Shown piece after piece: positions 334-27,520 of a stretch of 64,000 bases of DNA (position 1 is its first letter; every line of letters starts with the position of its first letter). The stretch is taken from the NCBI GenBank assembly GCA_028101095.1, contig JAOHKG010000002.1, positions 7,916 to 71,915 on the forward strand, written 5' to 3'. A program made the position numbers and the translations under genes. The notes below the pieces were generated by a model. That model saw nothing but the letters and a program-made list of their open reading frames with translations, had not been told where the DNA came from and searched no databases. Source of the stretch: Fidelibacterota bacterium (GTDB lineage Bacteria > Fidelibacterota > Marinisomatia > Marinisomatales > UBA1611).

Positions 334-708
334 ATGTCAAAGAGTATACAGAAATCAATTCTCTTAATTGAGAGTGACGAATCTGTTTTAAGCAGTTTGC
401 AAGAAAAACTGAAGATAGCAGGTTATTTAGTCATAAGTGCAAAAGATGGATTCGAAGGGTATGAGCGAGTAAAAAGTGAAAACCCAAGTATAATAATATC
501 TGAACTTGCACTTCCCGTCATGAGTGGAGCAAAAGTAGCTAGACTATTAAAATATGATGAAAGATATAAAGAAATCCCATTTATTTTACTAGGGTCAGAT
601 AATGCTTTGTCAAAAATTAATAAAGAAGAGTACAATATTGAAAAAGTCTTACCAAAACCTTTTCGTTTGGGTGATTTAAAAGATGCGATTGAGACCCTTC
701 TAGGATGA
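334..708 (+). CDS. Stand-alone response-regulator receiver domain protein (CheY-like), with Glu at the phospho-acceptor position
   Basis: 124 aa. Receiver landmarks LLIESDES, IIISELALPVMSG and LPKPF. Confidence 0.85.
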   Translation: MSKSIQKSILLIESDESVLSSLQEKLKIAGYLVISAKDGFEGYERVKSENPSIIISELALPVMSGAKVARLLKYDERYKEIPFILLGSDNALSKINKEEYNIEKVLPKPFRLGDLKDAIETLLG

Positions 709-1499
709 TAGACCCAGTTATTCTTTTTACTTTGTTTGTTTTTGGGATTTCAATTGGAAGTTTCTTAAATGTGGTAATATTTCGACTGCCGAAAAACATG
801 AGTTTGTTTTTTCCTGGTTCTCATTGCTTTTCATGTAAGACACCGGTTCGATTTCGTGATAATATACCTGTTTTGGGTTATTTTATTCTAAAGGGGAAAT
901 GTCGTAGTTGTGAATCAACATTTTCATCTCGTTATGCTCTAGTTGAGTTATTCTCGGGATTAATCACATGCGTCCTTTTTGCCTTATATGGATTCAGCCA
1001 ATATTTTTTCATCTACTCATTTCTTACTTATGCTTTAATTGCGATAACATTTATTGATCTAGATCATTTTATTATTCCAAATGGATTTATAATCCTAGGT
1101 CTTATTAGTATAATGATAATTTACTATTTTGATTTTACACCAATTCACTGGGAGGACGGTGCAACTGGGGCTTTAATTTTTGGAGGTTTTCTTTTTTTCC
1201 TTGGAGTCTTTGGCGAATTTATCCTAAGAAAAGAAAGTATTGGTTTTGGAGATGTGAAACTTGGACTTGTGTTAGGAGGATTGATTGGGATTAAGTATTC
1301 TATTTTGGCACTTTACCTCAGTTTTTTTTCAGCGGGTATTGCAATAATTATTTTAATGGCTTTTAAAAAATTAAACACAGTATCAGGGCAGATACCTTTT
1401 GGTCCATACATTTCAGCAGGAACTCTTTTAACAATATTAACAAGTACTCCAAATGGTGATAATATAATTATTGATTGGTACTTAAGGACGATGTTTTAA
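705..1499 (+). CDS. pilD: Prepilin peptidase / N-methyltransferase (peptidase A24)
   Basis: CFSC...CRSC cysteine pairs, GFGDVKL and IPFGPY aspartyl-protease motifs, multiple TM segments. ATGA overlap with the upstream gene. Confidence 0.9.
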   Translation: MIDPVILFTLFVFGISIGSFLNVVIFRLPKNMSLFFPGSHCFSCKTPVRFRDNIPVLGYFILKGKCRSCESTFSSRYALVELFSGLITCVLFALYGFSQYFFIYSFLTYALIAITFIDLDHFIIPNGFIILGLISIMIIYYFDFTPIHWEDGATGALIFGGFLFFLGVFGEFILRKESIGFGDVKLGLVLGGLIGIKYSILALYLSFFSAGIAIIILMAFKKLNTVSGQIPFGPYISAGTLLTILTSTPNGDNIIIDWYLRTMF

Positions 1500-1500
1500 T

Positions 1501-3165
1501 ATGCCAGCACTAAATAAGTCCTCCATAGGGCAAATGATTATTACGAGTGGGAAAATTGATCAGTCTCAACTAAGAACTGCTCTAGATTATCAAGAAGATA
1601 ATAATGGCTATATCGGTCAAGCTCTTATTGAATGTGGTTTTTTGACATATGAAGAATTTTTACCTTATTTAGGGAAGCAATTAAAAGTCCCGTACTTACA
1701 GCTTGGTTATTATGAGATTGATCAAACTTTAGTTGATATTGTACCGGAAAAGAGTGTTCGAACATACAAAGTTTTTCCTCTTTTTAAGGTTAAAGAAGTT
1801 GTAAATCTTGCGGTTGTAGATCCGCTAGATCCAGAGCCAATAAATTTTGTAAGAGAGTTAACTGGAATGGCTGTTGAGCCAATCCTGTGTAGTGAAGAAG
1901 ATATTGTAAATGCAATTGATCTACATTACGGTATCTCAAGCTTTTTAGAAGCGGACTCAAACTTAGATGATGCTAAAGATATTACGGATTTGTATGATGA
2001 AAGTCAGATTGTTGAATTAGTAGATGGTATTATTACTCAGAGTCAACGCTACAGGTGTTCTGATATTCATATTGAACCAAGAGAAGAAGATATTCGAATT
2101 CGTTTTAGAATTGATGGAAAGTTGCAAGATTTTCAAGTATTTCCAAAATCAATACAAGATGCTCTTATCTCAAGGTTGAAAATTATGTCGAGTATGGATA
2201 TTGCAGAAACCAGACGTCCCCAAGATGGAAGAATACTTTTTCGATCAAAGGTTGGAAGAATCGATCTTCGGTTATCAACATATCCAACGTTGTTTGGTGA
2301 AAAAACAGTTTTACGTTTATTAAACTTACAAGAAGCTCTTTATTCGTTGTCAGATCTAGGTTTTAGAAAAGAAACAGAAGTTCATTTTAATTCAATGCTC
2401 CATGGTGGAGAGGGAATTGTTCTTGTTTCAGGTCCAACGGGAAGTGGTAAAACTACCACGCTTTATTCTACATTAAATAAGCTTGAAAAGCCTGAAGTGA
2501 ACATTGTGACAGTTGAGGATCCAATTGAGTTTGATCTTGCAAATATTAATCAGGCACAAGTAAATGCAAAATCAGGTGTGACTTTTGCAGCTGCACTTCG
2601 ATCAATATTGAGGCAAGATCCAGATGTTATCATGGTTGGAGAGGTTCGAGATGAGGAAACGGTGGACTTAGCTATAAGAGCTGCACTTACAGGTCATTTA
2701 GTCTTTAGTACTATTCATACAAATGATGCCGCTTCAGGATTTGCCCGTTTACTTAACTGGGGAATTGAACCCTTTTTAATTTCATCAACCGTTAAAGGAA
2801 TTTTAGCTCAAAGACTAGTTCGGAAAATTTGTGAAAATTGTAAAATTGAACATGAGATAACTGAAAGAGAAGTTAACTTGTTGAAAATCGATAAGAAAAA
2901 ATACAGAACTACCTATACAGGCAAGGGTTGCCTGTCTTGTCGGAATTCTGGTTACAGAGGAAGACTAGGTATCTATGAATTGTTAATGGTTAATGAAGAA
3001 ATTTCCGAGTTAGTATTAGATGCACAACCGGCGTACAAGATTAAAGAAAAAGCACGTGAGCATGGAATGATGACTCTTCTTGAAGATGGGCTTGCAAAAG
3101 TAAGAGAAGGCACCACTAGTTTGAATGAACTTATTGAAACATTAGGTGCTACAAGGGCAATCTAG
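1501..3165 (+). CDS. pilB: Type IV pilus / T2SS assembly ATPase (PilB/MshE/GspE family)
   Basis: Walker A GPTGSGKTTT, IMVGEVRD Walker B region, CENC...CLSC tetracysteine motif, and an N-terminal tandem MshEN-like 24-aa motif. Confidence 0.92.
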   Translation: MPALNKSSIGQMIITSGKIDQSQLRTALDYQEDNNGYIGQALIECGFLTYEEFLPYLGKQLKVPYLQLGYYEIDQTLVDIVPEKSVRTYKVFPLFKVKEVVNLAVVDPLDPEPINFVRELTGMAVEPILCSEEDIVNAIDLHYGISSFLEADSNLDDAKDITDLYDESQIVELVDGIITQSQRYRCSDIHIEPREEDIRIRFRIDGKLQDFQVFPKSIQDALISRLKIMSSMDIAETRRPQDGRILFRSKVGRIDLRLSTYPTLFGEKTVLRLLNLQEALYSLSDLGFRKETEVHFNSMLHGGEGIVLVSGPTGSGKTTTLYSTLNKLEKPEVNIVTVEDPIEFDLANINQAQVNAKSGVTFAAALRSILRQDPDVIMVGEVRDEETVDLAIRAALTGHLVFSTIHTNDAASGFARLLNWGIEPFLISSTVKGILAQRLVRKICENCKIEHEITEREVNLLKIDKKKYRTTYTGKGCLSCRNSGYRGRLGIYELLMVNEEISELVLDAQPAYKIKEKAREHGMMTLLEDGLAKVREGTTSLNELIETLGATRAI

Positions 3166-4603
3166 GATGATAAGTGTTTTATTCGTTGGTGGAAAAGAAA
3201 AAATTATTCCACAATTCAAAAACCTACCGGTAAAAGTAGACTACGTGCAAAATGGGATGATTGCATTGAATGCTTTGCAGACGTCTTCTTATGAAAGTGT
3301 AATTATTGCGAATAAGCTTCCAATGCTTACTCCATCTAGGTTGGTAAAAGAGGTTCGCAAAATAAACCTATATATTCCAATCTTTTGTTTTATTTCAGAT
3401 GATAAAAGACGATCAGAAATACTTAAAGATTTTGAAAATGGCATGACCTTTTATTTTGAGCCAGAAGCTCAAACAGCTGATGATTTACTGGAATTAGTGC
3501 TTTTAGGAAAACAGTTTATTGATTTTATTTATGATATACCTGAAATAGATAGGCGGTTTTTTGGTCCACAAGGAACAGGGAAAATTGTTGGAATTACTGA
3601 GCCAATGCTTGATCTGTACAGACTCCTTTTTCAAATAAGAAAAAAAACAGTTACTACCATATTATATGGAGAAAGTGGAACTGGAAAAAACTTAGTTGCT
3701 GAATCGCTACACCAAAATAGTTTGCGAAGAGAAAATCCTTTTGTTTCTGTGAATTGTCCAGCGATACCAAAAGAATTATTAGAGAGTGAATTATTTGGGC
3801 ATGTAAAGGGTTCATTCACTGGAGCAGATCAAGATAAAATAGGAAAATTTCAGGCCGCAAATAGTGGTACCATATTTTTAGATGAAATTGGTGATATGGA
3901 TCAAGGACTGCAGGCAAAAGTTCTCCGTGTTCTTGAGTCTAGTGAAATTGAAAAAGTTGGATCAAATGAAACGATAAAAGTGGATGTGAGAATCGTCTCA
4001 GCCACAAATCAAAATATAGAAGAAATGATTGAACAAAATCAATTTAGGCAAGATCTTTATCATAGAATTAATGTTTTTCCAATGACAATCCCTTCTTTAA
4101 TGGACCACCCAGGTGATATCCCTCTTATTGCATATAGGATTATTGATGGTTTGAAAAAAAAGCATGAATCGGAAGTGAATTATATTTCACCTGGTGCATT
4201 AAAATTAATGAAAAACTATCATTGGCCCGGTAATGTTAGGGAATTAGAAAACATACTTGAGCGAGCGGTTCTTCTCACAGATGAAAATGTAATCACCAGT
4301 GGAAATATTTTACCTCTTCTTACAAAGAAGAAAGAAGAAATAATTCAAGAAAAAGAATCGGAATTGAAATTAGATGCGCAAACAGATAATGAATTTGAAA
4401 AAGAGACCTTGCTCAAAACAAAAATAGATAAAAGGTCAGGTTCAACACCACCTAAGACATTAAAAGAGATTGAAAAAAATGCCATTGTAGATGCTTTAAG
4501 TTTCACTGAATGGAATATGAGCAAAGCTGCAAAAGTATTAGGGGTTAGTCGGATGACGCTTTACCGTAAAATTGACTCATATGGAATTCAAGAAAATGAG
4601 TAA
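3146..4603 (+). CDS. Sigma-54-dependent transcriptional activator (NtrC/PilR type) with a degenerate receiver domain
   Basis: GESGTGK Walker A, ESELFGH, GSFTGA (GAFTGA loop), VRELEN, C-terminal Fis-type HTH MSKAAKVLGVSRMTLYRKI. In-frame ATG at 3167, just after the pilB stop, is the more likely start. Confidence 0.88.
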   Translation: MLQGQSRMISVLFVGGKEKIIPQFKNLPVKVDYVQNGMIALNALQTSSYESVIIANKLPMLTPSRLVKEVRKINLYIPIFCFISDDKRRSEILKDFENGMTFYFEPEAQTADDLLELVLLGKQFIDFIYDIPEIDRRFFGPQGTGKIVGITEPMLDLYRLLFQIRKKTVTTILYGESGTGKNLVAESLHQNSLRRENPFVSVNCPAIPKELLESELFGHVKGSFTGADQDKIGKFQAANSGTIFLDEIGDMDQGLQAKVLRVLESSEIEKVGSNETIKVDVRIVSATNQNIEEMIEQNQFRQDLYHRINVFPMTIPSLMDHPGDIPLIAYRIIDGLKKKHESEVNYISPGALKLMKNYHWPGNVRELENILERAVLLTDENVITSGNILPLLTKKKEEIIQEKESELKLDAQTDNEFEKETLLKTKIDKRSGSTPPKTLKEIEKNAIVDALSFTEWNMSKAAKVLGVSRMTLYRKIDSYGIQENE

Positions 4604-5831
4604 AAAACTTCCACAGTTTTCTTACGTTGCCTTTAATAATGATACGGATACAGTAGTTAGGGATAAAGTAAAAGCCTCCAATGAAAAGGCTGCATTTTTA
4701 CAAATACAGCAATTGGGTCTTGAGCCTTTAAATGTAAAAAAAGAAACCACTTCAATACTCGATATAGAAGTTACTTTTTTTGAAAAAATAACTCCGACTC
4801 AAATTTATAATTTCACAAGACAGCTCTCTGTGATGCTTAAAGCAGGAGTTCCGCTAGTCGAGGCAATGGATTCTTTGCATAGTGAATCGGCAGGACCACT
4901 TGTCAACAGAATCATCGACACGATTGTCGAAGATATCTCGGGTGGGTCCGCGCTATCAAAAGCTTTAGAAAAGCACCCTAAAATGTTTGATAGTATGTAT
5001 GTAAATATTGTTCGAGCTGGAGAAAGTGCAGGTGTATTGGATAAAGTCTTATTTCAGTTAGCTGACTTTATTGCAAGTGATTTGAAATTAAGAATGGGGA
5101 TCAAACAAGCAATTAGATATCCATCAATCGTTGTCACTATCACAATTCTAGTAGGGATATTTGCGGTAACATATATCTTACCGAGGTTTTCAACCCTTTT
5201 TGCGAACTCTAATATTGCTTTGCCATTACCGACAAGAATATTGCTCGGGGTAGATACTTTTATCCAAGAATACTGGTATCTATTGATTTTTATTTTTGCT
5301 GCATTATTTGCATCAGTCACAGCTTTTATTCGTAGTAAAAAAGGAAGTTATATTTGGCATAAAACAAAAATTGGTCTTGGTATTATTGGTCCAATTTCGC
5401 TTAAAATGTCTATCTCTAGATTCATACACGTTTTGGAGACGTTAGACAGGACTGGGGTACCTATTTTGGATGCGCTTAAAATCGCGGGTAGAACAACTGG
5501 CAACAATTATATAGAACACAACCTTAATAAAGTTCACCAAGACGTCCGTATGGGGAAAAAATTAGCTTTTTCTTTAACAAAATTCACAACAGGGATATTC
5601 CCGAGTCAAACACTTAAGATGATACAAGTTGGTGAAAGCGCGGGAGCTTTGGGTGATATGCTAAGTGAAATTGGTGAGATGATGGATGCTGAGGTAAAAG
5701 ACCATGTTTTAAAGTTAACGGCAACACTAGAGCCATTGATAAGTGTTTTTATGGGTTTTATGATTTTAACATTAGCATTGTCAATTTTTTTACCAATATG
5801 GGATATGTACGAAGCGATGTCTGCATCCTAG
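4596..5831 (+). CDS. pilC: Type IV pilus platform protein (PilC/GspF family)
   Basis: Two GspF-type repeats with three TM segments. ATG 4596 overlaps the activator stop (ATGAGTAA); the track ORF begins at TTG 4572. Confidence 0.9.
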   Translation: MSKKLPQFSYVAFNNDTDTVVRDKVKASNEKAAFLQIQQLGLEPLNVKKETTSILDIEVTFFEKITPTQIYNFTRQLSVMLKAGVPLVEAMDSLHSESAGPLVNRIIDTIVEDISGGSALSKALEKHPKMFDSMYVNIVRAGESAGVLDKVLFQLADFIASDLKLRMGIKQAIRYPSIVVTITILVGIFAVTYILPRFSTLFANSNIALPLPTRILLGVDTFIQEYWYLLIFIFAALFASVTAFIRSKKGSYIWHKTKIGLGIIGPISLKMSISRFIHVLETLDRTGVPILDALKIAGRTTGNNYIEHNLNKVHQDVRMGKKLAFSLTKFTTGIFPSQTLKMIQVGESAGALGDMLSEIGEMMDAEVKDHVLKLTATLEPLISVFMGFMILTLALSIFLPIWDMYEAMSAS

Positions 5832-5836
5832 AAAGC

Positions 5837-5884
5837 TGTTACACTCTTTGTCCCTAAATGTTACAATTGTTATATAATGTTACA
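5837..5884 (+). promoter_or_regulatory. Three TGTTACA repeats, candidate upstream activating sites for the sigma-54 activator
   Basis: TGTTACA at 5837-5843, 5859-5865 and 5878-5884 (spacings 22 and 19 nt), about 80-125 nt upstream of the sigma-54-like promoter. Confidence 0.35.
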
Positions 5885-5962
5885 TCCTTCCTTAATTATA
5901 AATCGCAGTTTTAACATGTTTTAAGTTGTCTTTTTAAAATTTTTAGTAAAAAAGATATAGTT

Positions 5963-5978
5963 TGGCACAGAAGTTGTA
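5963..5978 (+). promoter_or_regulatory. Sigma-54 (-24/-12)-like promoter upstream of the pilin genes
   Basis: TGGCAC-agaag-TTGT compared with the consensus TGGCAC-N5-TTGC. It lies about 40 nt upstream of the ATG at 6015, and a sigma-54 activator is encoded just upstream. Confidence 0.5.
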
Positions 5979-6014
5979 TAATAGAGGTGTATTACAAAAT
6001 AACTAGGAAATAAG

Positions 6015-6644
6015 ATGAAATTATTTAAAAAACTAAAAAGCAGGAAAGGCCAGTCGCTTGCAGAATTTGCTGTAACAACAGCAATGATGGCAACACTAGC
6101 AACCACTGCTGCACCGAAGTTTTCTGGCGTTGGAGAAGGCGCGAAGGAAAAGAAGACGTATTCGAGTATTGATAAAATTATCAAGTCTGCAAACAATTTT
6201 TATAATGAGAAAGTGACAACAGAAGGACGTGGTCGTTTTCCAGGACAGCTCAAGTATGACTCCGCTGTTCCTGATGGTGGCGGATACAATGATCAGGCAT
6301 TATGCCTTACAAGTCTAGATCTGTTTGAAACGTATGAAAGTTCAGAAGCTTCTAAGTGGGCTTCCATATTTGGTACACAGAATGATGCAGCTCAGACCCC
6401 ATCAGGTAGTAGTGTTAATACTTCTGAAGATCCAGATAGTGATGGATCGTTTACTGAGACCGTAGGAGCAGAAGAGTTTTTAAATGAGTTTGGTGGCAAC
6501 GCAATTAAGAGTCCCTTTCAGGATGGTCACTACATTTATACAGTAATAGCTGGAGGTGGAGCAGGTCAGTCATCGTACTCACCCGTTTTATTTGTGGCTG
6601 ATTTAGAAAGTCCAAAGAACTTTAACAAAAAACTACAACCGTAG
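6015..6644 (+). CDS. Pilin-like protein with an atypical class III signal (G|QSLAEF)
   Basis: 209 aa. N-terminus is KSRKG|QSLAEFAVTTAMMATLATTAAP, with Glu at +5 and a hydrophobic helix. Confidence 0.6.
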   Translation: MKLFKKLKSRKGQSLAEFAVTTAMMATLATTAAPKFSGVGEGAKEKKTYSSIDKIIKSANNFYNEKVTTEGRGRFPGQLKYDSAVPDGGGYNDQALCLTSLDLFETYESSEASKWASIFGTQNDAAQTPSGSSVNTSEDPDSDGSFTETVGAEEFLNEFGGNAIKSPFQDGHYIYTVIAGGGAGQSSYSPVLFVADLESPKNFNKKLQP

Positions 6645-6656
6645 ACAACTAGGAGA

Positions 6657-7184: not shown

Positions 7185-7673
7185 ATGAAATATTTATTAA
7201 AAAAAGGTAACAAAGGTTTTACGATAGCAGAGTTTGTTGTGACTATTGCCTTGATGGGTACGATGATGAGTGTAGTCCTGCCTTCTTTTGATAGTATTAC
7301 ACTAAATATGCAAGCAAGTCAAAATAAAACCAATATGGATATGATACGACAGGTGTTTTTTGGCTACTTTTATGATACACATATGAAGGGTATTGCTCAT
7401 TTACCTCCCTCTCCAACTAATGAAGAAGGATTAATGAGTGAGGAGTGGGCAAATGAAATTATAAATGAAGACATGTCTCTCTCCACTCCAAACGATTTAT
7501 TCTCAGCTGGTGCAGTCCCCAATAATGCAAATGGAAACCCCTTTTCATACGAAACATGGACTGACACTACCTACTTAGGGTCGGATGGTATGAAAGTTGA
7601 CTATTTTGTTCGTATTACTGATATTGATGAAGATAGTCCTTCTTTTGAAGTCTCTTTTACTTCTGCTATCTAA
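7185..7673 (+). CDS. Minor pilin / pseudopilin
   Basis: 162 aa. KKGNKG|FTIAEFVVTIALMG with Glu+5. Confidence 0.75.
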   Translation: MKYLLKKGNKGFTIAEFVVTIALMGTMMSVVLPSFDSITLNMQASQNKTNMDMIRQVFFGYFYDTHMKGIAHLPPSPTNEEGLMSEEWANEIINEDMSLSTPNDLFSAGAVPNNANGNPFSYETWTDTTYLGSDGMKVDYFVRITDIDEDSPSFEVSFTSAI

Positions 7674-7696
7674 TGTAAATATATTAAATTTGGCAA

Positions 7697-10896: not shown

Positions 10897-10909
10897 TCTA
10901 GGAGTGACT

Positions 10910-11245: not shown

Positions 11246-11311
11246 AAAACCTCGTTAATTAAGGCGTAAAATAGATCTTATAGTTTTACTAATTTATTTG
11301 TAATATAAAAT

Positions 11312-15978: not shown

Positions 15979-15982
15979 TAAA

Positions 15983-20170: not shown

Positions 20171-23100
20171 ATGAGCAAAGGTTTTATACATAAGATTTAC
20201 ATCTTTCTATTTATTATATCTTTCAATGTATGTTTTGGGCAAACATTTGAATTTAGTCAAGCAGTAACCGATTCATTACCTCAAGTTAATGCTAATTCAT
20301 TACAAGTTGGTGACGTGAACAATGATGGCTTCAATGATTTATTTATTTCGGGTTATGATGAACGTCGGTTTGGATTATACTTTGATGTATTAATTGGTAC
20401 GGAATTAGGCGTTCTTTCTCCACTTTCAAATCTAGAAATAATTACTTACCCTGACACAATTGGCGAATTTATGGGAGGTTTAGGTAATATTGCTTTGGCG
20501 GATGTCAATAGAGATGGAAACATTGACACATATATTAACGGTTCTGCAGAATCATATTTATTGCTTAATGGATCAGATGGCTTTGAGTTTACAACTGGGC
20601 TAGAAAGCCGAAGTCTTACATACAGTCATGGGAGTTGGGGTGATGTAAATATGGATGGTACACCTGATTTATTTATGATGGGTGTTGACGAAACTCAAGA
20701 TATTATTTTAAATAAATTATATTTGAATAATGGAGATAGGCTAGAAGAAGATTTTACAACAATTTTTCCCAACTTATTCAATGGTTCAAGTGCGTGGTGT
20801 GATTATGATAACGATGGCGATCCAGATTTAATTATTTGTGGACAGACAGCCAGTTCAGCATCGAGTGTTACAAGATTTTATAAAAATGAACCAACAGGAA
20901 GATTAGTTGAAGATACGAATCAAGATTTCATTGGATTAAAAGCTGGATCTTTTAAATTTTCAGATTTAGATCAAGATGGAGATCAAGATCTAATTATGTC
21001 TGGTTGGAATGTTCTTTTAAACTCAAATGTAACAAAAATTTATAAAAATGAGCCATTAGGAACGTATACTGAAATTGAGTCAGGACTAGACTTTGGTGTT
21101 AGTTATGGATCAATAGAATCAGCTGATTTTGATTTAGATGGTGATATTGATTTTATTATCGCAGGTGCAGATTCTACAGAAAACTTAGCGACGGATGTTC
21201 TAAGACTTAATGCTACTCTTGTGCAGAATAACGGGAATTTTTCTTTTACAGTTCTTCAGAATTATCAAGATGTAAGGATTGCTAATTTCATAGATGTTAA
21301 TTCAGATTTAAAACCGGACCTTGTAACGAATGGTACAACTCAATTTGGTGATATTAATAGTTCATTTACTAAAGTTTATATAAATCAATCAAACTCTAAT
21401 AGTTCTTCTCCAATTGCACCATCAAGCCTAACTGCATTTGCAGTAAGTAATCGAGCTATTTTTACATGGGGTTCTGGTTCTGATGAATCTGATAATTCAA
21501 CTAGTTTAAGATATAATTTGAAAATTGGGAACACTGTAAGTAGATCGAGTCTGTTATCTCCTTCTATAATTTATAGAGGATCAAATGTTGGGCAACGACT
21601 TGTAAGAGAGTTCTCAAATATTCCGCATGGAACATATTATTGGTCTGTGCAGACTCTGGATGCCGCGGGAAATTTATCAGAATGGTCTGATGAAGACACT
21701 TTATTTATTTCAAGGCTTGTGACTTCAACTCAATCACTTCCAGGTGTTTATTTCTCTTCCGCAGGGTGGGCAGACTATAATAATGATAATAAGTTAGACC
21801 TAGCATTGACTGGGATTACTTTTTCAGGAAATAGTATTACAAGTTTATATCAGAACGAGGATGAACTTTTAAATCAAGATTTATCACAAAATATAGATGC
21901 TGTTTTTGGAGGACATCTTTCGTGGGTTGATTATACAAATGATGGGAATTTGGATATTTCTTTATCGGGTTTTCAAATTATAAATTTTAATGGATTTCCG
22001 GCAACCGCATTTTACAAATATCAAAATGGAACTTATGTTTTTGATGCTCAAAATAACGTTACTAATTCTATTTATGGGTACACAATGGGAATTAACGGCG
22101 GATCAAATAATCATTCTTGGGGTGACTTTGATAACGATGGAGATTTTGATTTTGTAATTGGTGGGACAGATTACTACGGACAAAGAAATCTTAAAATCTT
22201 TAAGAATGATGGTGGGAACCTTAGCCTTGATACCACTCAATTAAATTTAATTCCTCTTTTTCCATGTATGGTTAACTGGGTTGATTTAAATAATGACGGA
22301 TATTTAGATCTTGTTTCGGTTGGAGCTGACTCGAATGCGGTTATAAAAATAAACACATACATCAACGATTCATCTTATGTTTTAAAGTTCTCAGATAAAT
22401 GGTCATCAGAACAATATGGTGTAACAGCAGGGGCCTTTGATTTTGGCGATTATAATGATGATGGCTATATTGATTTCTCAATACTAGGCTTGAATAGTAA
22501 CAGCGAGCCCGTATGTAAAATAATAACGAATTCTATAGATGGTTTTTCTAAAGAAGAAGGTCATGAATTACGAGGTTTGTTTAATGGTCGGCCAACTTGG
22601 GGCGATTATGACAATGATGGTGATTTAGATTTGTTAATATCAGGCTTATCAAGTACAGCTGATGGAGGAAGAGATCCTTTTACATCTATCTACTATCAAC
22701 AAAACTCAGTCTTTTCAATTGATGAGACATTAAATATTGATTCTTTAGGATATAGTTTTACTCAGTTTGGCGATTATGATGATGATGGTGATATAGATTT
22801 ATTTGTTTCTGGTTTTAATTCCAGTTCTGATGTTGTTTCAAAGGTCTATGATAATCTAGAAGCGCTAGAAAATAAAAACAATGCTCCGAACAAGCCGTAT
22901 AGTTTGAATATTGACATCGATAAAAAAGATATTCATCTTTCTTGGAGTGCTCCACAAGACATTGGAACGGAAAAAGGCTTTTTTACAAAAGAAAGCGGTC
23001 TCAAATATCAAATTCAGATTGGAACTGAAAATACTAATAATCATAAAATTATTACGGGAAATTATGGGAATAATTCAATTGGTTCGATAAACCTAACTGA

Positions 23101-24262
23101 TAAAATAGTCAGAGGAGTTCCGGAAGGAAATTATTTTTGGAAAGTAAGAGCTTCAGACCATGGATCAAGAAAATCAGATTGGTCTAATGCTGATTACTTT
23201 TATATCGATACTACACCACCTAATGTAGATACAGTTCGAGCTAATTATATTTCAGCACGAGATGTTATTTTAGTTGTGAAATTTAAAGAACAATTTTTTC
23301 TTAATGTGAATATTGACCCTTATGTTTTCGTGACGCATCCTGAAACTCCGGATCTCGATGAGGATGGAGTCACAGATTCAATTGTAGTTACTAAAGAGAG
23401 TTATAATGGTGATGAATGGACAGGATCAGTTTCTTTACCAACTGGATACAATGGTAAAACATTAAATATAAATGTTTCATCTGCTGTTGATGAGAGAGGG
23501 AATCAAATGATTCCAGAATCAATTTATAAAACTCCTGAAACTGTAATCTCTTTAAGTGGTGGCACCTCTATTAGTGAAGATGGTAATGCCTTCTTAATGG
23601 TGCCGCAAAGTGCCATTAAAACTGATGCTGAAATAACGATAAATAATATTGAAACAAGTTTAGATCTAGGGGATTCAACGTATCAGTTGAGTAATCTTTA
23701 TAACATAAAGCCAAATAACTTAGAACTAGAAAAGCCAGTGGTTATTAGAATTGTACTAGGTGATTCACTAATAACAGGTTTAGATAGCATACCATTTATT
23801 GCTAGAGTTGAAGATTCAGGGGAGCTCTTATCTATAGGAGGCTCCAAGGTTACAATAAATAATCAATCTTTTTTACAGGTGCAAACTGATAAATTAGGTA
23901 TGTACGGTGTCTTTGCAGGGACAATCAATACCAAGATAGATAGTCTTTCGAATGATTTAATATGCCAGCCAAGAATCTTTTCTCCAGCAGGGTCAATTTT
24001 TGAGTTTAATAAAACAAATATTCTCTATACTGTGGATCCGGATGAAAACCAAAATAACATAACGGCTAGAATATTTAACCTAAGTGGTAGACTTAAAAGA
24101 GTAATTGAGCCAGAAGTCTCTAATAATATTTCTGGTAATCAAGTCTTGGCATGGGATGGAAGAGATTTTGATGGAAAAGTGGTTAAAAGTGGTCTTTATA
24201 TTGTGACGTTAGAAAAAGAAAGTACGATCTTAAAAACAACAGTAGGTGTTTTGAATAGATGA
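20171..24262 (+). CDS. Secreted FG-GAP/VCBS repeat protein (two seven-repeat sets) with an FlgD-Ig/T9SS-CTD-like C-terminus
   Basis: 1363 aa with a signal peptide. 14 DxNxDGxxDL-type repeats arranged 7+7, each set followed by an FN3-like segment. C-terminus is FNLSGRLKRVIEPE...LAWDGRDFDGKVVKSGLYIVTL. Confidence 0.85.
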   Translation: MSKGFIHKIYIFLFIISFNVCFGQTFEFSQAVTDSLPQVNANSLQVGDVNNDGFNDLFISGYDERRFGLYFDVLIGTELGVLSPLSNLEIITYPDTIGEFMGGLGNIALADVNRDGNIDTYINGSAESYLLLNGSDGFEFTTGLESRSLTYSHGSWGDVNMDGTPDLFMMGVDETQDIILNKLYLNNGDRLEEDFTTIFPNLFNGSSAWCDYDNDGDPDLIICGQTASSASSVTRFYKNEPTGRLVEDTNQDFIGLKAGSFKFSDLDQDGDQDLIMSGWNVLLNSNVTKIYKNEPLGTYTEIESGLDFGVSYGSIESADFDLDGDIDFIIAGADSTENLATDVLRLNATLVQNNGNFSFTVLQNYQDVRIANFIDVNSDLKPDLVTNGTTQFGDINSSFTKVYINQSNSNSSSPIAPSSLTAFAVSNRAIFTWGSGSDESDNSTSLRYNLKIGNTVSRSSLLSPSIIYRGSNVGQRLVREFSNIPHGTYYWSVQTLDAAGNLSEWSDEDTLFISRLVTSTQSLPGVYFSSAGWADYNNDNKLDLALTGITFSGNSITSLYQNEDELLNQDLSQNIDAVFGGHLSWVDYTNDGNLDISLSGFQIINFNGFPATAFYKYQNGTYVFDAQNNVTNSIYGYTMGINGGSNNHSWGDFDNDGDFDFVIGGTDYYGQRNLKIFKNDGGNLSLDTTQLNLIPLFPCMVNWVDLNNDGYLDLVSVGADSNAVIKINTYINDSSYVLKFSDKWSSEQYGVTAGAFDFGDYNDDGYIDFSILGLNSNSEPVCKIITNSIDGFSKEEGHELRGLFNGRPTWGDYDNDGDLDLLISGLSSTADGGRDPFTSIYYQQNSVFSIDETLNIDSLGYSFTQFGDYDDDGDIDLFVSGFNSSSDVVSKVYDNLEALENKNNAPNKPYSLNIDIDKKDIHLSWSAPQDIGTEKGFFTKESGLKYQIQIGTENTNNHKIITGNYGNNSIGSINLTDKIVRGVPEGNYFWKVRASDHGSRKSDWSNADYFYIDTTPPNVDTVRANYISARDVILVVKFKEQFFLNVNIDPYVFVTHPETPDLDEDGVTDSIVVTKESYNGDEWTGSVSLPTGYNGKTLNINVSSAVDERGNQMIPESIYKTPETVISLSGGTSISEDGNAFLMVPQSAIKTDAEITINNIETSLDLGDSTYQLSNLYNIKPNNLELEKPVVIRIVLGDSLITGLDSIPFIARVEDSGELLSIGGSKVTINNQSFLQVQTDKLGMYGVFAGTINTKIDSLSNDLICQPRIFSPAGSIFEFNKTNILYTVDPDENQNNITARIFNLSGRLKRVIEPEVSNNISGNQVLAWDGRDFDGKVVKSGLYIVTLEKESTILKTTVGVLNR

Positions 24263-26997
24263 AGTATTTTTTAATTGTTTCAACACTAATATGTGCTTTG
24301 AGCAGTCAATCATATGATCAGCTCTTTTTTGGAACAAGACCTTTTGGAATGGGTGGTGCTTTTGTTGCAATCGCGGATGATGCAAATGCGATTAGTTGGA
24401 ACCCCTCAGGACTACCTGGTCTACGAAGAAAAGAATTTACTTCTACTTACACAGATTTATATAACATGGGTATTTCTAAATCCTATATTGGTTTTGTTTA
24501 CCCTTTTTCAGATAAAATAGCTTTTGGTCTAGACTGGGGTAACATAGGGTTTGATGATAGTGAGCTACTTTATGGTGAAAATAAGATTGGCTTTGCCGTC
24601 GGATATCAACCTTTTTCAATGTTTTCTGTTGGTATCAATACAAAGTATTTATTCCGTGACATGCAACTAAATGGAACTTCTTATGGTAAAAGTTCAGGAA
24701 TTGGTTATGATCTAGGTTTTCTTTTACAGCCTCACAAAATGTTAAGACTTGGTTTCAGTCTTTATGATTTAGGTGGTACAAATGTTGACTATGAAGATAA
24801 TATATCGGAAACAGTTTTAGAACAGGCTTTAAAGGTAGGTGTCGCTATTCAACCTCTAGAAAATTTGAAATTTGCATTCGATAAAAGTGATAGAAACCAT
24901 TTTGGAGCTGAGTATGTTATTGCAAATAGACTCTCAATCAGGATGGGGTATCAACAAGAATCTTTTGGATCAGCAAATCTAAATATTCTTTCAGTAGGTA
25001 CATCTATTAAATTCAAAAGTATAGTCGTTGAATATGGCTATGAAACTCAAAAATATTTAGATCCAATACATAGAATTTCTTTTGCTCTCCAATTAAGCCC
25101 AGATGTTGTCAGCATTACAACAACTCAAATTTCTCATAATCCAATTTTTAGGTCGTTACATCGCTATTATGAGTCCGAGCCGTTTGCTAAAATTGGAATC
25201 AAAAATATTTCAGATGAAGATTTGCCAGTAGACGTATCTTTATTTGTTCCTACAATGATGGAGAATCCACATAATCAATCTGTTATCCTTCCACCAAAAT
25301 CAGATGATGAGTACGAAATTGACATTTCTTTTTCAAGTGATGTATTGTCCTCAAAAAAAGCAACATTTGATAATCTTGTTCAGCCAGAAGTTCAAGTGAC
25401 GTACAAGCAGGGTGGTGAAGAAAAGCTCGCTCTTAAAAAGTTAGAATCCTCTTACGTGTTAGGGAAAGGAAAATTAACTTGGAGTAATCCGGATATGATT
25501 GCCTGTTATGTTACCCCTGCAGATGCTGTCATTGATAAATTTGCCAGAAATAATATTCAATATTACACTCCTGTGTTAAATGATTACTTCGGACGAAGTA
25601 ACTTGGGAAGAGCTATTATTCTCTATGATGCTTTAGGGACTCACGGGCTGGTTTATAATATAGATTTAGAGACCCCTTTCTTAGATATTGCTGATGATAA
25701 GTCTGCATTTGACACTGTAAAATATCCTGGAGATATGTTAAGGGATAAAATTGGTGACTGCGATGATTTAACAGCCCTTTACGGATCATTATTAGCAAAT
25801 TTAGGAATTGAGACCATGTTCCTAGACGTTTTTAAACCTGGAGCAGGGCACATATTTCTTATGTTTGACAGTGGTGTAAAACCCGATGATGTAGAAAAAT
25901 ATTTTCTTGATGCTTCAGAAGTAGTTGTTTTAAATAATAAGGTGTGGATCCCGATTGAAGCAACACTTGTGGGAAAAAGTTTTTTCTCGGCGTGGAAGCA
26001 AGGCTCCTTAAAATATAATGAAATGAAATCAGAAAACTATGTCAATGAGATTTCAGTCAAAGAAGCCTCCGCAAAATACATAGCAGGTTCCCATATTACT
26101 CCAGATGTACCATTCCCTGAAATTGAAGGTATTAGCCCTTTACTTAAAGAAGATATTAAACAGTACGGGATGTGGCTTGAGCAGATTGTTTATAAATCAG
26201 TGGATAACAGGTTAGAATCTGCAGAGGACTATTATGATGCAGGTGTTAAGTATATGGAATTTGGTAGATACAAAGAAGCAACACAAATGCTTGAAACAAG
26301 TATTAACATGAAGCCAGTGTTCCCTGATGCGATAAATACATTGGGGGTTTGTTTCACTAAAAAAGAAGATTATATCCAAGCAATTTCTTTTTATGAAAAA
26401 GCAATTGATCAATCTGGAGAGCACGCTGGCTATCTATTGAATATTGCTATCGCTCATTTTATGATGGGTAATAAAGGAATGGCAAAGCAAAAATATGATG
26501 AAGTTGTCTTAATTGATCCCGTCTTTGCTGGGAAATTAGATAAAATATTTGGTGCCGCTAAAGCAACGCTTGCTGGAAGTGCTCCTATGCCTGGACAATT
26601 AAGTATCTCTACAGACTTGGAAGACGAGTTGCAAAAAGGTTCAAGCCAAGGTCTTGTAAGCCTAGATATAAAGCCTAAAAAAATTGAAGCTAAGGATATT
26701 CCTAAAGTTTCTCATCGAAAAAGAAGAGCACGGAGTGATAACACTGTAGGTGTTACTTTTGCGAGGTTAGGAAATTACTCTATGGCAATAGATTATTTTA
26801 GAAAAGCCGTTGAACATGACTCAGAGCAATTTGATTATAAAGAAAATTTAGCTGTAGCACTTTACAGAACATATAAATACGATGAAGCAAACAACCTTTA
26901 TAATGAAATAAAAAAGATTAAACCAGAAAAAACAGCGGAATTAAGTTTTATAGAAAGTATGGGGAAAATCACACCAAAGTATAATAAGTTTGATTAA
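24259..26997 (+). CDS. PorV/PorQ-like outer-membrane beta-barrel domain fused to a transglutaminase-like core and TPR repeats
   Basis: 912 aa. N-terminus FGTRPFGMGGAFVAIADDANAISWNPSGL. Mid-region GDCDDLTALYGSLLANLGIE...GHIFLMF...VWIPIEAT. C-terminal TPR-like repeats. Confidence 0.6.
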   Translation: MKYFLIVSTLICALSSQSYDQLFFGTRPFGMGGAFVAIADDANAISWNPSGLPGLRRKEFTSTYTDLYNMGISKSYIGFVYPFSDKIAFGLDWGNIGFDDSELLYGENKIGFAVGYQPFSMFSVGINTKYLFRDMQLNGTSYGKSSGIGYDLGFLLQPHKMLRLGFSLYDLGGTNVDYEDNISETVLEQALKVGVAIQPLENLKFAFDKSDRNHFGAEYVIANRLSIRMGYQQESFGSANLNILSVGTSIKFKSIVVEYGYETQKYLDPIHRISFALQLSPDVVSITTTQISHNPIFRSLHRYYESEPFAKIGIKNISDEDLPVDVSLFVPTMMENPHNQSVILPPKSDDEYEIDISFSSDVLSSKKATFDNLVQPEVQVTYKQGGEEKLALKKLESSYVLGKGKLTWSNPDMIACYVTPADAVIDKFARNNIQYYTPVLNDYFGRSNLGRAIILYDALGTHGLVYNIDLETPFLDIADDKSAFDTVKYPGDMLRDKIGDCDDLTALYGSLLANLGIETMFLDVFKPGAGHIFLMFDSGVKPDDVEKYFLDASEVVVLNNKVWIPIEATLVGKSFFSAWKQGSLKYNEMKSENYVNEISVKEASAKYIAGSHITPDVPFPEIEGISPLLKEDIKQYGMWLEQIVYKSVDNRLESAEDYYDAGVKYMEFGRYKEATQMLETSINMKPVFPDAINTLGVCFTKKEDYIQAISFYEKAIDQSGEHAGYLLNIAIAHFMMGNKGMAKQKYDEVVLIDPVFAGKLDKIFGAAKATLAGSAPMPGQLSISTDLEDELQKGSSQGLVSLDIKPKKIEAKDIPKVSHRKRRARSDNTVGVTFARLGNYSMAIDYFRKAVEHDSEQFDYKENLAVALYRTYKYDEANNLYNEIKKIKPEKTAELSFIESMGKITPKYNKFD

Positions 26998-27024
26998 ATT
27001 AAAACCTAAGCTAAAGGTATAGAT

Positions 27025-27471
27025 ATGAATAGATTAATATATATTATAAGTATTTTATCATTTGGATTTCTTTATTCGCAAGATGAAGAACTAGACATGG
27101 ATGCTATGTGGGATAATACTGTCTGGAATGAGATCGAAGAAGTCTCAACAAAAGAATATGAAGTAGAAAAGGTAACCACTGTCGCTGGAGTTCGTGGAGC
27201 AGAAGCAGAGGATGAAGCGCTTCATCATTTGTATTACAGACAATCCATGAAAGGGCCAAGCGAGATCCAACTCAATAAAGCTTTAGGCAAACTCTTAAAT
27301 ACTTTAGCTACTCTAAAAGAAAAAAAACCTGAAAATAGTAAGATTCCAGAAGTCACTCACTACGTTATTCAAATATATAAAAAATTAAATAATAATGAGA
27401 AAGCAATTGAATTTCAGACTGAGCTTTTAGCTTCCGCACCAGAATCAAAATGGGCGAAGTATTATAAATAA
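27025..27471 (+). CDS. Small secreted hypothetical protein
   Basis: 148 aa with signal-like N-terminus IYIISILSFGFLYSQ. Last gene before the terminator. Confidence 0.5.
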   Translation: MNRLIYIISILSFGFLYSQDEELDMDAMWDNTVWNEIEEVSTKEYEVEKVTTVAGVRGAEAEDEALHHLYYRQSMKGPSEIQLNKALGKLLNTLATLKEKKPENSKIPEVTHYVIQIYKKLNNNEKAIEFQTELLASAPESKWAKYYK

Positions 27472-27490
27472 TTATATTATGGAATTTATT

Positions 27491-27520
27491 AAAAGGGGTT
27501 TCTTAAACCCCTTTTTTTTT
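27491..27520 (+). terminator. Rho-independent terminator
   Basis: GGGGTTT (27495-27501), loop CTT, AAACCCC (27505-27511), followed by a T9 run (27512-27520). Confidence 0.85.

What the first reader, a model, noticed from the sequence alone, without database searches (positions are those of the whole stretch)
334..27520. Pilus locus runs without a break into a CHASE2 cyclase, a double-propeller adhesin and a PorV-like/transglutaminase fusion: possibly one ~27-kb surface system
All genes from 334 to 27471 are co-directional. Most junctions are overlaps or a few nt: ATGA at 705 and 24259, TAATG at 14816, and the secretin stop at 17287 overlapping the cyclase start at 17280. The cyclase-to-FG-GAP gap is 11 nt. 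After the pilin hairpin at 7124, the first canonical hairpin-plus-T-tract terminator is at 27491-27520. So a second-messenger sensor, a giant secreted FG-GAP protein and an outer-membrane fusion protein appear transcriptionally welded to pilus assembly genes. No PilT-type retraction ATPase is present in the window. I do not recognise this combination as a described system.
Basis: partly seen in the sequence, partly recalled or inferred. Interest (0 to 1): 0.72.

Follow-up and report, generated by a model that had tools for sequence, protein, structure and literature searches.

The report
Pilus operon fused to envelope-sensing module
In marine Marinimicrobia, a type IV pilus operon runs straight into a four-gene module (CHASE2 adenylate cyclase, giant propeller surface protein, PorV-like outer-membrane fusion protein, small TPR protein); that module also occurs without pilus genes in other phyla and looks like an undescribed outer-membrane-to-cAMP sensing device.

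Summary
All 22 genes from 334 to 27471 are co-directional, the quoted junctions are exact, and a strong terminator lies at 27491-27515.

In about 44 dereplicated groups of Marinimicrobia loci (genome and metagenome scans), the block secretin / CHASE2 cyclase / FG-GAP protein / PorV-like fusion / 148-aa TPR protein is conserved. It is kept through at least three internal rearrangements. The gene after the 148-aa protein differs between lineages (7 families).

The 27 kb is nevertheless a composite. Homologues of the 912-aa fusion protein fall into ten clades. The fusion has a PorV-type barrel, an Ig-like domain, a transglutaminase-like domain with an invariant GDCDD motif, and TPR repeats. Outside Marinimicrobia, 0 of 25 testable groups have a secretin. 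Yet 21 of 23 have a propeller protein with the same C-terminal domain just upstream, 30 of 36 have the small TPR protein, and 18 of 23 have a CHASE2 sensor within 7 kb. The CHASE2 output domain varies: cyclase, sigma-54 activator or PP2C phosphatase.

My best reading is an MSHA-like type IV filament operon joined to a separately conserved trans-envelope sensing and adhesin module. The closest precedent is the NsrA (outer-membrane barrel) / CHASE2 cyclase pathway of Sinorhizobium and the FecR-TPR-CHASE2 clusters of Campylobacterota. One Marinimicrobia locus (L022) even carries a FecR-domain gene in front of the cyclase. The mechanism is inferred, not shown.

The parts
334..708 (+). Stand-alone receiver (REC) response regulator
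   Evidence: Pfam Response_reg 50.6 bits
705..1499 (+). Prepilin peptidase (PilD-like)
   Evidence: Pfam A24_N_bact + Peptidase_A24
1501..3165 (+). Assembly ATPase of PilB/GspE/MshE type, with an N-terminal MshEN c-di-GMP-binding motif
   Evidence: T2SSE 429 bits and MshEN; NF053729 c-di-GMP motif 40.2 bits vs cut-off 38
3146..4603 (+). Sigma-54 enhancer-binding protein (PilR/NtrC-like)
   Evidence: Sigma54_activat, AAA_lid_14, HTH_8; aligns to NtrC from residue 28
4572..5831 (+). Platform protein (PilC/GspF)
   Evidence: T2SSF, two stretches
5837..5884 (+). Three TGTTACA repeats (5837, 5859, 5878); candidate enhancer-binding sites
   Evidence: 19 matches in the window vs 9.1 +/- 2.9 expected; three are clustered here. 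The binding role is inferred.
5963..5977 (+). Sigma-54-type -24/-12 promoter element TGGCAC-N5-TTGT, 38 nt before the first pilin-like gene
   Evidence: Only exact match to TGGCACNNNNNTTGY in 64 kb; lies in the only long (183-nt) gap of the locus
6015..6644 (+). 209-aa pilin-like protein (leader ...KG|QSLAEF, Glu at +5)
   Evidence: Read from the sequence; no Pfam hit; homologue follows p148 in L081/L082
6657..7100 (+). Major-pilin candidate (N_methyl motif)
   Evidence: Pfam N_methyl 34.9 bits
7124..7152 (+). Stable hairpin after the pilin gene, with a T-run 9 nt further on; probable attenuator
   Evidence: -17.6 kcal/mol, z = -5.3
7185..9251 (+). Four minor pilin genes (7185-7673, 7697-8227, 8212-8706, 8703-9251)
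   Evidence: N_methyl hits for three; the prepilin motif of the fourth was read directly
9244..10896 (+). 550-aa membrane-anchored protein with a Cys-rich and repeat-rich C-terminus; candidate pilus-associated adhesin
   Evidence: No family hit. Only 38 clusters of relatives, some with the C-terminal part replaced by a Laminin_G_3 domain. Same position in L135. The role is inferred.
10904..11737 (+). Two small genes (113 aa with a signal peptide; 141 aa with four hydrophobic segments); function unknown
   Evidence: No family hit; equivalents of 113 and 142 aa in L135
11757..14816 (+). Fusion of an ExeA/MshM-like AAA_22 ATPase with PilM-like and PilN-like parts
   Evidence: AAA_22 62 bits; weak PilM-family hits at 521-895
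14816..15415 (+). PilO-like protein (ATG at 14816 overlapping the TAA stop; the longest ORF starts at 14804)
   Evidence: Pfam PilO 24.1 bits; sequence
15427..15978 (+). 183-aa protein with a GspB/ExeB-like C-terminal domain
   Evidence: Weak T2SSB hit; stronger in the L027 homologue (28.6 bits)
15968..17287 (+). Secretin (N0/STN + secretin domain)
   Evidence: Secretin 140.8 bits; GspD and PilQ models score equally
17280..20159 (+). Membrane CHASE2 sensor fused to a class III nucleotide cyclase; predicted adenylate cyclase of class IIIb
   Evidence: CHASE2 97.3 bits and Guanylate_cyc 82.8 bits. Catalytic motifs FTDIQSF, KYIGDA, NRIGISSG and YTMMGDNVNTAAR were read from the sequence and interpreted from background knowledge of class III cyclases.
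20171..24262 (+). 1363-aa secreted FG-GAP propeller protein. It ends in a conserved ~230-aa module whose last part is a FlgD_ig-type domain resembling a T9SS C-terminal sorting domain.
   Evidence: FG-GAP_3 125 bits; FlgD_ig 22.1 bits (below cut-off); TIGR04183 16.6 bits (below cut-off); C-terminal module aligned across clades
24259..26997 (+). 912-aa outer-membrane fusion protein: PorV-type barrel (about 58-291), Ig-like sandwich (310-401), transglutaminase-like domain (411-606; C501, H531, E567), TPR repeats (627-902)
   Evidence: NF033709 95.9 bits; AF2 pLDDT 85.8; best fold hits are the PorV chains 6h3i_F and 8gl6_F; invariant GDCDD; Transglut_core in 17/19 members; TG2/FXIII/PNGase fold hits
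27025..27471 (+). 148-aa secreted small TPR-like protein, the constant downstream partner of the fusion protein
   Evidence: tblastn orthologues at the same position in both major clades; weak TPR and PorW-region hits
27491..27515 (+). Intrinsic terminator (11-bp stem followed by a T-run) marking the end of the block
   Evidence: In relatives the next gene is usually on the other strand (40/55).

Best explanation
The region is a composite operon.

Part A (334-17287) is an MSHA-like type IV filament machine. It has a prepilin peptidase, an MshE-type ATPase with a c-di-GMP-binding N-terminus, a platform protein, pilins and a secretin. It also has an ExeA-like AAA_22/PilM/PilN fusion, PilO and a GspB-like protein. 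Its structural genes are probably driven by a sigma-54 promoter at 5963-5977, under the locus-encoded activator.

Part B (17280-27471) is a four-gene envelope module that is conserved on its own in several phyla.

Inferred mechanism for Part B:
- The FG-GAP propeller protein is exported and held at the cell surface through its conserved C-terminal domain by the PorV-type barrel of the 912-aa protein. This would mirror the way PorV binds cargo C-terminal domains in type IX secretion.
- The Ig-like, transglutaminase-like and TPR domains of the 912-aa protein, together with the 148-aa TPR protein, face the periplasm.
- They report the state of this surface complex to the periplasmic CHASE2 domain of the cyclase, which converts it into cAMP.

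In Marinimicrobia the module has been built into the pilus operon, so the adhesin, its sensor and the pilus are made together.

Shown: gene content, domain identities, conservation and linkage. Inferred: co-transcription, topology, protein contacts, the direction of signalling and the target of cAMP.
For: Composite nature:
- Marinimicrobia loci keep PilO / GspB-like / secretin / cyclase / FG-GAP / fusion / p148.
- Outside that clade, a secretin is found in 0 of 25 testable groups. A cargo gene carrying the same C-terminal domain lies upstream in 21/23. A p148-like gene follows in 30/36. A CHASE2 gene lies within 7 kb in 18/23.
- A CHASE2 gene is present in 6 of the 10 clades defined at 48% identity.

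Sensor link:
- The CHASE2 partner changes its output domain: cyclase (L048, L049, L051 and others), sigma-54 activator (L131), SpoIIE phosphatase (L133).
- It also changes position relative to the other genes, so what is conserved is CHASE2 together with the fusion protein.

Integration in Marinimicrobia:
- Three gene orders keep the linkage.
- The FG-GAP/fusion ATGA overlap is kept in 39/40 loci.
- Seven different gene families follow p148.

Domains:
- PorV family and fold, including a cargo-CTD-bound PorV structure as a top hit.
- Transglutaminase-like triad.
- The C-terminal cargo module is conserved across clades even when the propeller type differs (FG-GAP vs Reg_prop).

Precedent:
- CHASE2 cyclases of S. 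meliloti sense a signal through the outer-membrane barrel protein NsrA (PMC13001267).
- L022 has a FecR-domain gene directly before its CHASE2 cyclase, followed by FG-GAP, fusion and p148.

Promoter and terminator.
Against: - No transcript data. Operon structure rests on spacing, one promoter-like site and terminators, in a genome where unrelated genes are also tightly packed and co-directional.
- No cAMP receptor (cNMP-binding protein) was seen among the window ORFs scanned (a few ORFs were not scanned), so the output pathway is unknown.
- The cargo C-terminal domain scores below the curated thresholds for T9SS sorting domains.
- Whether these genomes have T9SS core genes could not be checked.
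- The periplasmic location of the post-barrel domains is assumed from PorV/FadL topology, not computed.
- The non-Marinimicrobia sample is dominated by one clade (31 of 45 loci).
- Four of the ten clades showed no CHASE2 gene within the DNA available.
- Transglutaminase fold matches are weak (E about 1e-3, TM 0.2-0.3).
Confidence: 0.6

Rival explanations
1. One indivisible 27-kb pilus system. The cyclase, FG-GAP protein, fusion protein and p148 would be dedicated pilus parts. For example, the TPR part could act as a secretin pilotin like PilF/PilW/Tgl/MshN, and the FG-GAP protein could be a pilus-associated adhesin.
For: - Unbroken tight junctions and conserved linkage through rearrangements in Marinimicrobia.
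- In L027/L087/L092 the cyclase lies between a PilO-related gene and the GspB-like/secretin pair.
- In L081/L082 pilin genes follow p148 after about 22 nt.
- The TPR region gives weak hits to PilW, Tgl and PilF.
Against: - The same fusion / p148 / CHASE2 / cargo set occurs with no secretin or pilus gene in 0/25 testable groups of nine other clades, including two near-complete genomes.
- TPR hits are generic.
Confidence: 0.15
2. The filament genes are a type II secretion system and the FG-GAP protein is its substrate. The downstream genes would then be cargo and accessory factors of that secretion system.
For: - ATPase and secretin score equally well against GspE/GspD and PilB/PilQ models.
- ExeA-like AAA_22 and GspB-like parts are known from type II secretion.
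- No PilT was found in the window.
- In L091 the secretin gene directly precedes the FG-GAP gene.
Against: - The FG-GAP protein and its relatives carry a T9SS-like C-terminal domain and pair with a PorV-type barrel.
- They occur without any secretin elsewhere.
- A hairpin after the pilin gene and a large tip-type protein fit a pilus better. This point is an inference.
Confidence: 0.07
3. Mere neighbours. The module sits next to the pilus genes by descent in one phylum, has its own promoter and no functional tie to the pilus.
For: - The module is autonomous elsewhere.
- The whole 59-kb stretch is co-directional and compact.
- L022 shows the module with a FecR-domain gene instead of a secretin in front of the cyclase.
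Against: - Neighbours on the 3' side were replaced repeatedly (7 families), while the secretin-module link persisted across about 44 groups with fusion-protein identity down to 60%.
- Rearrangements interleave module and pilus genes instead of separating them.
- Junctions of -8 to +11 nt leave little room for a promoter.
Confidence: 0.13

Closest known systems
NsrA / CHASE2 adenylate cyclases (CyaD1, CyaD2, CyaK) of Sinorhizobium meliloti, and the CHASE2-cyclase / FecR-domain outer-membrane protein / TPR protein / phosphodiesterase clusters of Campylobacterota
   Same: - An inner-membrane CHASE2 cyclase is genetically tied to an outer-membrane beta-barrel protein and a TPR protein.
- In S. meliloti, signal perception by the cyclases goes through the outer-membrane protein (PMC13001267; PMC9239204).
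- One Marinimicrobia locus (L022) has a FecR-domain gene directly upstream of the cyclase.
   Different: - The barrel here is of the PorV/FadL type and is fused to Ig-like, transglutaminase-like and TPR domains.
- No FecR domain is present in the window.
- No phosphodiesterase gene is present.
- A giant propeller protein with a T9SS-like C-terminal domain is a constant partner.
- The CHASE2 output can be a cyclase, a sigma-54 activator or a PP2C phosphatase.
PorV (and PorP/SprF-type) outer-membrane partners of type IX secretion cargo
   Same: - Family-level sequence match above the cut-off.
- The best structural matches are PorV chains, including one bound to a cargo C-terminal domain.
- The gene is adjacent to, and overlaps, a cargo gene with a C-terminal Ig-like sorting-type domain.
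   Different: - Canonical PorV is a barrel only. This protein carries about 620 extra residues.
- The cargo domain is below T9SS model thresholds.
- The T9SS core could not be examined.
- Linkage to a CHASE2 sensor is not a known PorV feature.
MSHA / type IVa pilus and type II secretion gene clusters (type IV filament superfamily)
   Same: Prepilin peptidase, MshE-type ATPase with MshEN, platform protein, major and minor pilins, PilM/N/O-like parts, an ExeA/MshM-like AAA_22, and a secretin.
   Different: - AAA_22 is fused to PilM/PilN.
- There is no retraction ATPase in the window.
- The operon continues into the four-gene module.
Lap system (LapA adhesin, LapE pore, LapG transglutaminase-like periplasmic protease, LapD second-messenger receptor)
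   Same: The logic is similar: a giant surface adhesin, an outer-membrane anchor, a transglutaminase-like cysteine-protease fold in the envelope, and an inner-membrane nucleotide-signalling protein. There is a weak profile hit at the catalytic GDC motif to 4u65, deposited as a putative cysteine protease; from memory this is a LapG-type enzyme, which the tool output does not state.
   Different: - No homology to LapD or LapE.
- The nucleotide is made (cAMP) rather than sensed (c-di-GMP).
- The similarity is analogy only.

Membership tests
Type IV filament systems (T4P / T2SS class) | Prepilin peptidase, GspE/PilB ATPase, GspF/PilC platform and pilins with an N-terminal methylation motif | tested here: met
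   Pfam hits above cut-offs
Type IV filament systems (T4P / T2SS class) | Outer-membrane secretin and alignment proteins (PilM/N/O or GspL/M) | tested here: met
   Secretin 140.8 bits; PilO 24.1 bits; weak PilM-family hits within the 1019-aa fusion
Type IV filament systems (T4P / T2SS class) | Assignment to pilus versus secretion subtype (equivalog-level scores) | tested here: inconclusive
   PilB 559 vs GspE 544 bits and PilQ 184 vs GspD 185 bits, all below equivalog cut-offs
Retractile type IVa pili | PilT/PilU retraction ATPase | tested here: not met
   None among the window ORFs scanned (a few ORFs were not scanned). The rest of the genome could not be examined, so this says nothing about the organism.
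PorV/PorQ family (T9SS outer-membrane partner) | Family HMM score above the curated cut-off | tested here: met
   NF033709 95.9 bits vs cut-off 90, residues 25-278
PorV/PorQ family (T9SS outer-membrane partner) | PorV/FadL-type barrel fold | tested here: met
   AF2 model pLDDT 85.8; Foldseek 6h3i_F TM 0.66 and 8gl6_F TM 0.62 (normalised to target)
PorV/PorQ family (T9SS outer-membrane partner) | T9SS core (SprA/Sov, PorU, PorK-N) present in the same genome | not testable with these tools
   Only the window is available. Related contigs do encode Por_Secre_tail proteins. The C25 peptidase at 29385-32684 scores far below PorU cut-offs.
T9SS cargo (type A C-terminal sorting domain) | C-terminal domain matching TIGR04183 / Por_Secre_tail above threshold | tested here: inconclusive
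   TIGR04183 16.6 bits vs 23; FlgD_ig 22.1 bits vs 27. Homologous cargo in L078 and L046 carries clearer FlgD_ig / Por_Secre_tail signals.
Transglutaminase-like (papain-like) superfamily | Conserved Cys-His-Asp/Glu triad in the expected order | tested here: met
   C501 invariant; H531 and E567 at 90% or more in 35 diverse members
Transglutaminase-like (papain-like) superfamily | Family HMM or fold match | tested here: inconclusive
   Transglut_core in 17/19 trimmed domains, but sub-threshold (best E 1.1e-5). Foldseek hits to TG2, FXIIIa, PNGase and 3isr at E about 1e-3 with low TM.
CHASE2 receptor class III cyclases | CHASE2 domain between membrane segments plus a class III catalytic domain | tested here: met
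   CHASE2 97.3 bits; Guanylate_cyc 82.8 bits
CHASE2 receptor class III cyclases | Catalytic and adenine-specifying residues intact | tested here: met
   The two metal-binding Asp, the Lys, the Asn-Arg pair and a Thr at the class IIIb position were read in the sequence. Assignment rests on background knowledge; no enzymatic test.
NsrA-type / FecR-TPR-CHASE2 signalling clusters | FecR-domain outer-membrane protein next to the CHASE2 cyclase | tested here: not met
   No FecR hit in the window. Present in the related locus L022 only.
NsrA-type / FecR-TPR-CHASE2 signalling clusters | Outer-membrane barrel protein and TPR protein clustered with the CHASE2 sensor | tested here: met
   Fusion protein and p148 adjacent to CHASE2 genes in 6 of 10 clades

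The most novel reading that the evidence does not exclude
The PorV-barrel / Ig-like / transglutaminase-like / TPR protein, its small TPR partner and the propeller protein with the conserved C-terminal module form a previously unrecognised surface receptor. Its occupancy or mechanical load is read across the periplasm by CHASE2 domains. This would give CHASE2, a sensor domain with no known ligand in most bacteria, a general protein-partner mode of activation. In Marinimicrobia this receptor would be hard-wired into the pilus operon, so that particle attachment and cAMP signalling are coupled.
Probability: 0.3. Interest if true: 0.8.

Novelty: new variant of a known kind. Interest (0 to 1): 0.62.

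Why it matters
- CHASE2 is a widespread sensor domain whose input is largely unknown. A recurrent, rearrangement-resistant partnership with a specific outer-membrane fusion protein and a surface propeller protein gives a concrete, testable candidate input.
- It extends the single studied case (NsrA in Sinorhizobium) to other phyla and to other output domains.
- It suggests a new use of the PorV fold outside canonical type IX secretion.
- Marinimicrobia (SAR406) are abundant, uncultured ocean bacteria thought to live on particles. An operon that co-produces a pilus, a giant adhesin and a cAMP sensor is a plausible attachment-sensing device and a useful marker for metatranscriptomic studies.

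Tried and rejected
- Exact look-up of the window's 912-aa protein found nothing. The first homologue search returned only relatives of 73% identity or more, so it could not show depth.
A 10-sequence alignment worked.
- A single-sequence search of the middle domain against PDB sequences gave nothing.
- A whole-protein Foldseek search was dominated by TPR and barrel hits, so the middle domain had to be modelled separately.
- I considered that the C25 peptidase at 29385-32684 might be PorU, which is adjacent to porV in Bacteroidota (from memory). I rejected this because its scores are far below cut-offs and the linkage is not conserved.
- I considered the fusion protein as a dedicated secretin pilotin. 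I rejected this as its general role because secretins are absent elsewhere.
- I looked for a cAMP receptor, riboswitches or other RNAs and tRNAs in the window. None were found.
- Literature searches for CHASE2+PorV, CHASE2+FG-GAP and PorV+transglutaminase-like returned no paper. The NsrA paper itself (PMC5952392) is not held.

Full report
**What is there.** The window has about 33% G+C. Its proteins match MAGs and single-cell genomes named Candidatus Marinimicrobia / Neomarinimicrobiota. From 334 to 27471 there are 22 co-directional genes:
- a REC-only response regulator, a prepilin peptidase, and a PilB/GspE-type ATPase whose N-terminus passes the curated threshold for an MshE-type c-di-GMP-binding motif;
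- a sigma-54 activator and PilC;
- a 183-nt gap;
- a pilin-like 209-aa gene, a 147-aa pilin, four minor pilins, a 550-aa membrane-anchored protein and two small genes;
- an AAA_22/PilM/PilN fusion, PilO, a GspB-like protein and a secretin;
- a CHASE2 class III cyclase, a 1363-aa FG-GAP protein, a 912-aa protein and a 148-aa protein.

**Check of the observation.** Every quoted junction is exact. The hairpin after the pilin gene is unusually stable (z = -5.3). The 27491-27515 terminator is the strongest in the region.

Two cautions apply. First, all genes up to 59.1 kb share the strand, and the unrelated downstream genes are also tightly spaced (median gap 19 nt against 1 nt). Orientation alone therefore proves little. 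Second, weaker terminator-like hairpins exist inside the block, for example at 7733-7756.

The 183-nt gap holds the only exact TGGCAC-N5-TTGY match in 64 kb (5963-5977). Three TGTTACA repeats lie 85-125 nt upstream of it. Together with the locus-encoded activator, this suggests a sigma-54 promoter for the structural genes. That is an inference.

**Synteny in relatives.** A scan of species-representative genomes with the 912-aa protein gave 43 Marinimicrobia loci at 60-86% identity. Metagenome contigs added more.
- Every locus with enough flank keeps PilO / GspB-like / secretin / cyclase / FG-GAP / fusion / p148.
- Junctions stay tight. The FG-GAP/fusion overlap is ATGA in 39 of 40 loci. Cyclase to FG-GAP is mostly 4-25 nt, and secretin to cyclase is -8 to +11 nt.
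- After p148 the next gene belongs to seven different families and is on the opposite strand in 40 of 55 loci. The 3' border of the block is therefore real.

Linkage survives rearrangement.
- In L027, L087 and L092 the cyclase lies before the GspB-like/secretin pair. It follows a gene homologous to the C-terminal extension of PilO in other loci.
- In L091 the secretin directly precedes the FG-GAP gene.
- In L081 and L082 pilin genes follow p148 after about 22 nt.
- The upstream half (minor pilins through AAA_22) is conserved in L135.

**The block is a composite.** A search of 1.8 billion representative proteins with residues 1-640 of the 912-aa protein found 492 representatives below 1e-30. 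Many align end to end at 26-41% identity. Their contexts sort into ten clades at 48% identity.

After 95% dereplication, the non-Marinimicrobia groups with sufficient flank show the following:

| Feature near the fusion gene | Groups |
|---|---|
| Secretin | 0 of 25 |
| Large propeller protein ending in the same C-terminal domain, directly upstream | 21 of 23 |
| p148-like small TPR gene, directly downstream | 30 of 36 |
| CHASE2 gene within 7 kb downstream | 18 of 23 |

The CHASE2 protein is a cyclase in most of these loci. It is a sigma-54 activator in a Gemmatimonadota genome (L131). It is a SpoIIE/PP2C phosphatase in L133. Its position relative to the other genes also differs between clades. 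The constant association is therefore the CHASE2 sensor domain with the fusion protein, not a particular output.

The cargo proteins vary in their propellers (FG-GAP or Reg_prop). They share a C-terminal module of about 230 residues ending in a QPRxFSP...WDGRD...GLY Ig-like domain.

**The 912-aa protein.** AlphaFold2 with a 35-sequence alignment gives pLDDT 85.8. The model shows a barrel (about 58-291), an Ig-like sandwich (310-401), an alpha/beta domain (411-606) and TPR repeats.
- The barrel's best PDB matches are the PorV chains of the type IX translocon, including the complex with a bound cargo C-terminal domain. FadL follows.
- The middle domain was modelled alone at pLDDT 93.2. It gives weak but repeated matches to transglutaminase 2, factor XIIIa, PNGase and a putative cysteine protease.
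- 17 of 19 diverse members give sub-threshold Transglut_core hits.
- G499-D500-C501-D503 are invariant, and H531 and E567 are nearly so.

I accept 'transglutaminase-like' as a fold-level statement. Catalytic activity is untested.

**The cyclase.** The catalytic motifs of class III cyclases are intact. The adenine-specifying pair reads Lys/Thr, as in class IIIb adenylate cyclases (sequence, interpreted from background knowledge). No cNMP-binding protein was seen among the window ORFs scanned.

**How it probably works.** The filament genes resemble the MSHA / type IVa class. The models cannot separate a pilus from type II secretion.

For the module I propose three steps.
1. The barrel holds the exported propeller protein by its C-terminal domain.
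2. The periplasmic Ig-like, transglutaminase-like and TPR part, together with p148, contacts the CHASE2 domain.
3. The cyclase turns the state of that surface complex into cAMP.

All three steps are inferences from domain identities and conserved linkage.

There is precedent. CHASE2 cyclases of Sinorhizobium meliloti perceive a plant protein signal through the outer-membrane barrel protein NsrA (PMC13001267). Campylobacterota cluster CHASE2 cyclases with a FecR-domain outer-membrane protein, a TPR protein and a phosphodiesterase (PMC9239204). Locus L022 bridges the two worlds. There a FecR-domain gene directly precedes a CHASE2 cyclase, followed by FG-GAP, fusion and p148.

**Rivals.** Three rivals are listed with their evidence: an indivisible pilus system, a type II secretion system exporting the FG-GAP protein, and pure neighbourhood by descent. 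The first two conflict with the secretin-free occurrences. The third conflicts with the persistence and interleaving of the linkage while flanks turned over.

**Novelty and limits.** Full-text searches found no paper combining CHASE2 with PorV or FG-GAP, or PorV with transglutaminase-like domains. The library is incomplete, so this is absence of evidence only.

I rate it a new variant of a known kind: outer-membrane-assisted CHASE2 signalling, here with a PorV-type fusion protein and a T9SS-like cargo, inserted into a pilus operon in one phylum.

Main limits:
- there is no expression data;
- there is no view of the rest of the genome (T9SS core, PilT, cAMP receptors);
- one clade dominates the outgroup sample;
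- the topology is assumed rather than computed.

Noticed in passing
window 5837-5884, 5963-5977 and 252-258: A sigma-54-type -24/-12 element is the only exact match in the window. Three TGTTACA repeats lie upstream of it, and a fourth copy lies upstream of the first gene of the locus. These are possible binding sites for the locus-encoded activator.
   Followed up: partly
window 7733-7756: A 10-bp G+C-containing hairpin followed by a T-rich tail lies inside the second minor-pilin gene. It is the best terminator-like site inside the block after the pilin hairpin.
   Followed up: no
window 9244-10896; proteins P0317-P0332; L135 641-1765; L136 734-2623: The 550-aa protein after the minor pilins has few relatives (38 clusters). 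In some of them the C-terminal part is replaced by a Laminin_G_3 domain, a pattern typical of exchangeable adhesin modules. In L136 such a gene is followed by glycoside hydrolases instead of pilus assembly genes.
   Followed up: partly
window 29385-32684: A 1099-aa gingipain-type C25 peptidase with propeptide, Ig-like domain and a C-terminal dockerin. It has only a weak resemblance to the T9SS sortase PorU. It is linked to the block in only a few close relatives.
   Followed up: partly
window 38382-53359: A run of lipid-modification and light-related genes: amine-oxidase-like flavoprotein, DUF1365, two cyclopropane-fatty-acid-synthase-like methyltransferases, desaturase, DUF1295, SOUL haem-binding protein, two photolyase-family genes, and a MerR/B12-binding (CarH-like) regulator. 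It looks like a light-response cluster.
   Followed up: no
window about 59500-60300: Gene orientation flips from + to -, and GC skew changes sign at the same place (cumulative skew peaks near 60 kb).
   Followed up: no
L046 / L047 6132-10001: The cargo protein next to the fusion protein carries the conserved QPRVF-type Ig-like domain and, after it, a second canonical T9SS-type C-terminal domain (NPFNP ... K-x-x-L-K-A-K end). The conserved domain may therefore not itself be the secretion signal.
   Followed up: no
L049 8728-11671: In a 5.66-Mb genome the fusion-protein gene is truncated (556 aa, barrel missing), directly after two transposase genes. The p148-like and CHASE2 cyclase genes downstream are intact.
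   Followed up: no
L022 476-3631: A Marinimicrobia variant in which the cyclase has a shorter, more canonical CHASE2 domain and is preceded by a FecR-domain protein instead of a secretin.
   Followed up: partly
L134 12538-15978 and L050 6920-8362: In clades without a CHASE2 neighbour, the fusion protein is followed by other signalling-type proteins: a WD40 / caspase-like Peptidase_C14 protein in L134 and a REC-HD response regulator in L050.
   Followed up: no
proteins P0239, P0249, P0253, P0254, P0257, P0261, P0268: The Ig-like plus transglutaminase-like middle domain also occurs without the barrel, inside much longer proteins (1100-1780 aa).
   Followed up: no
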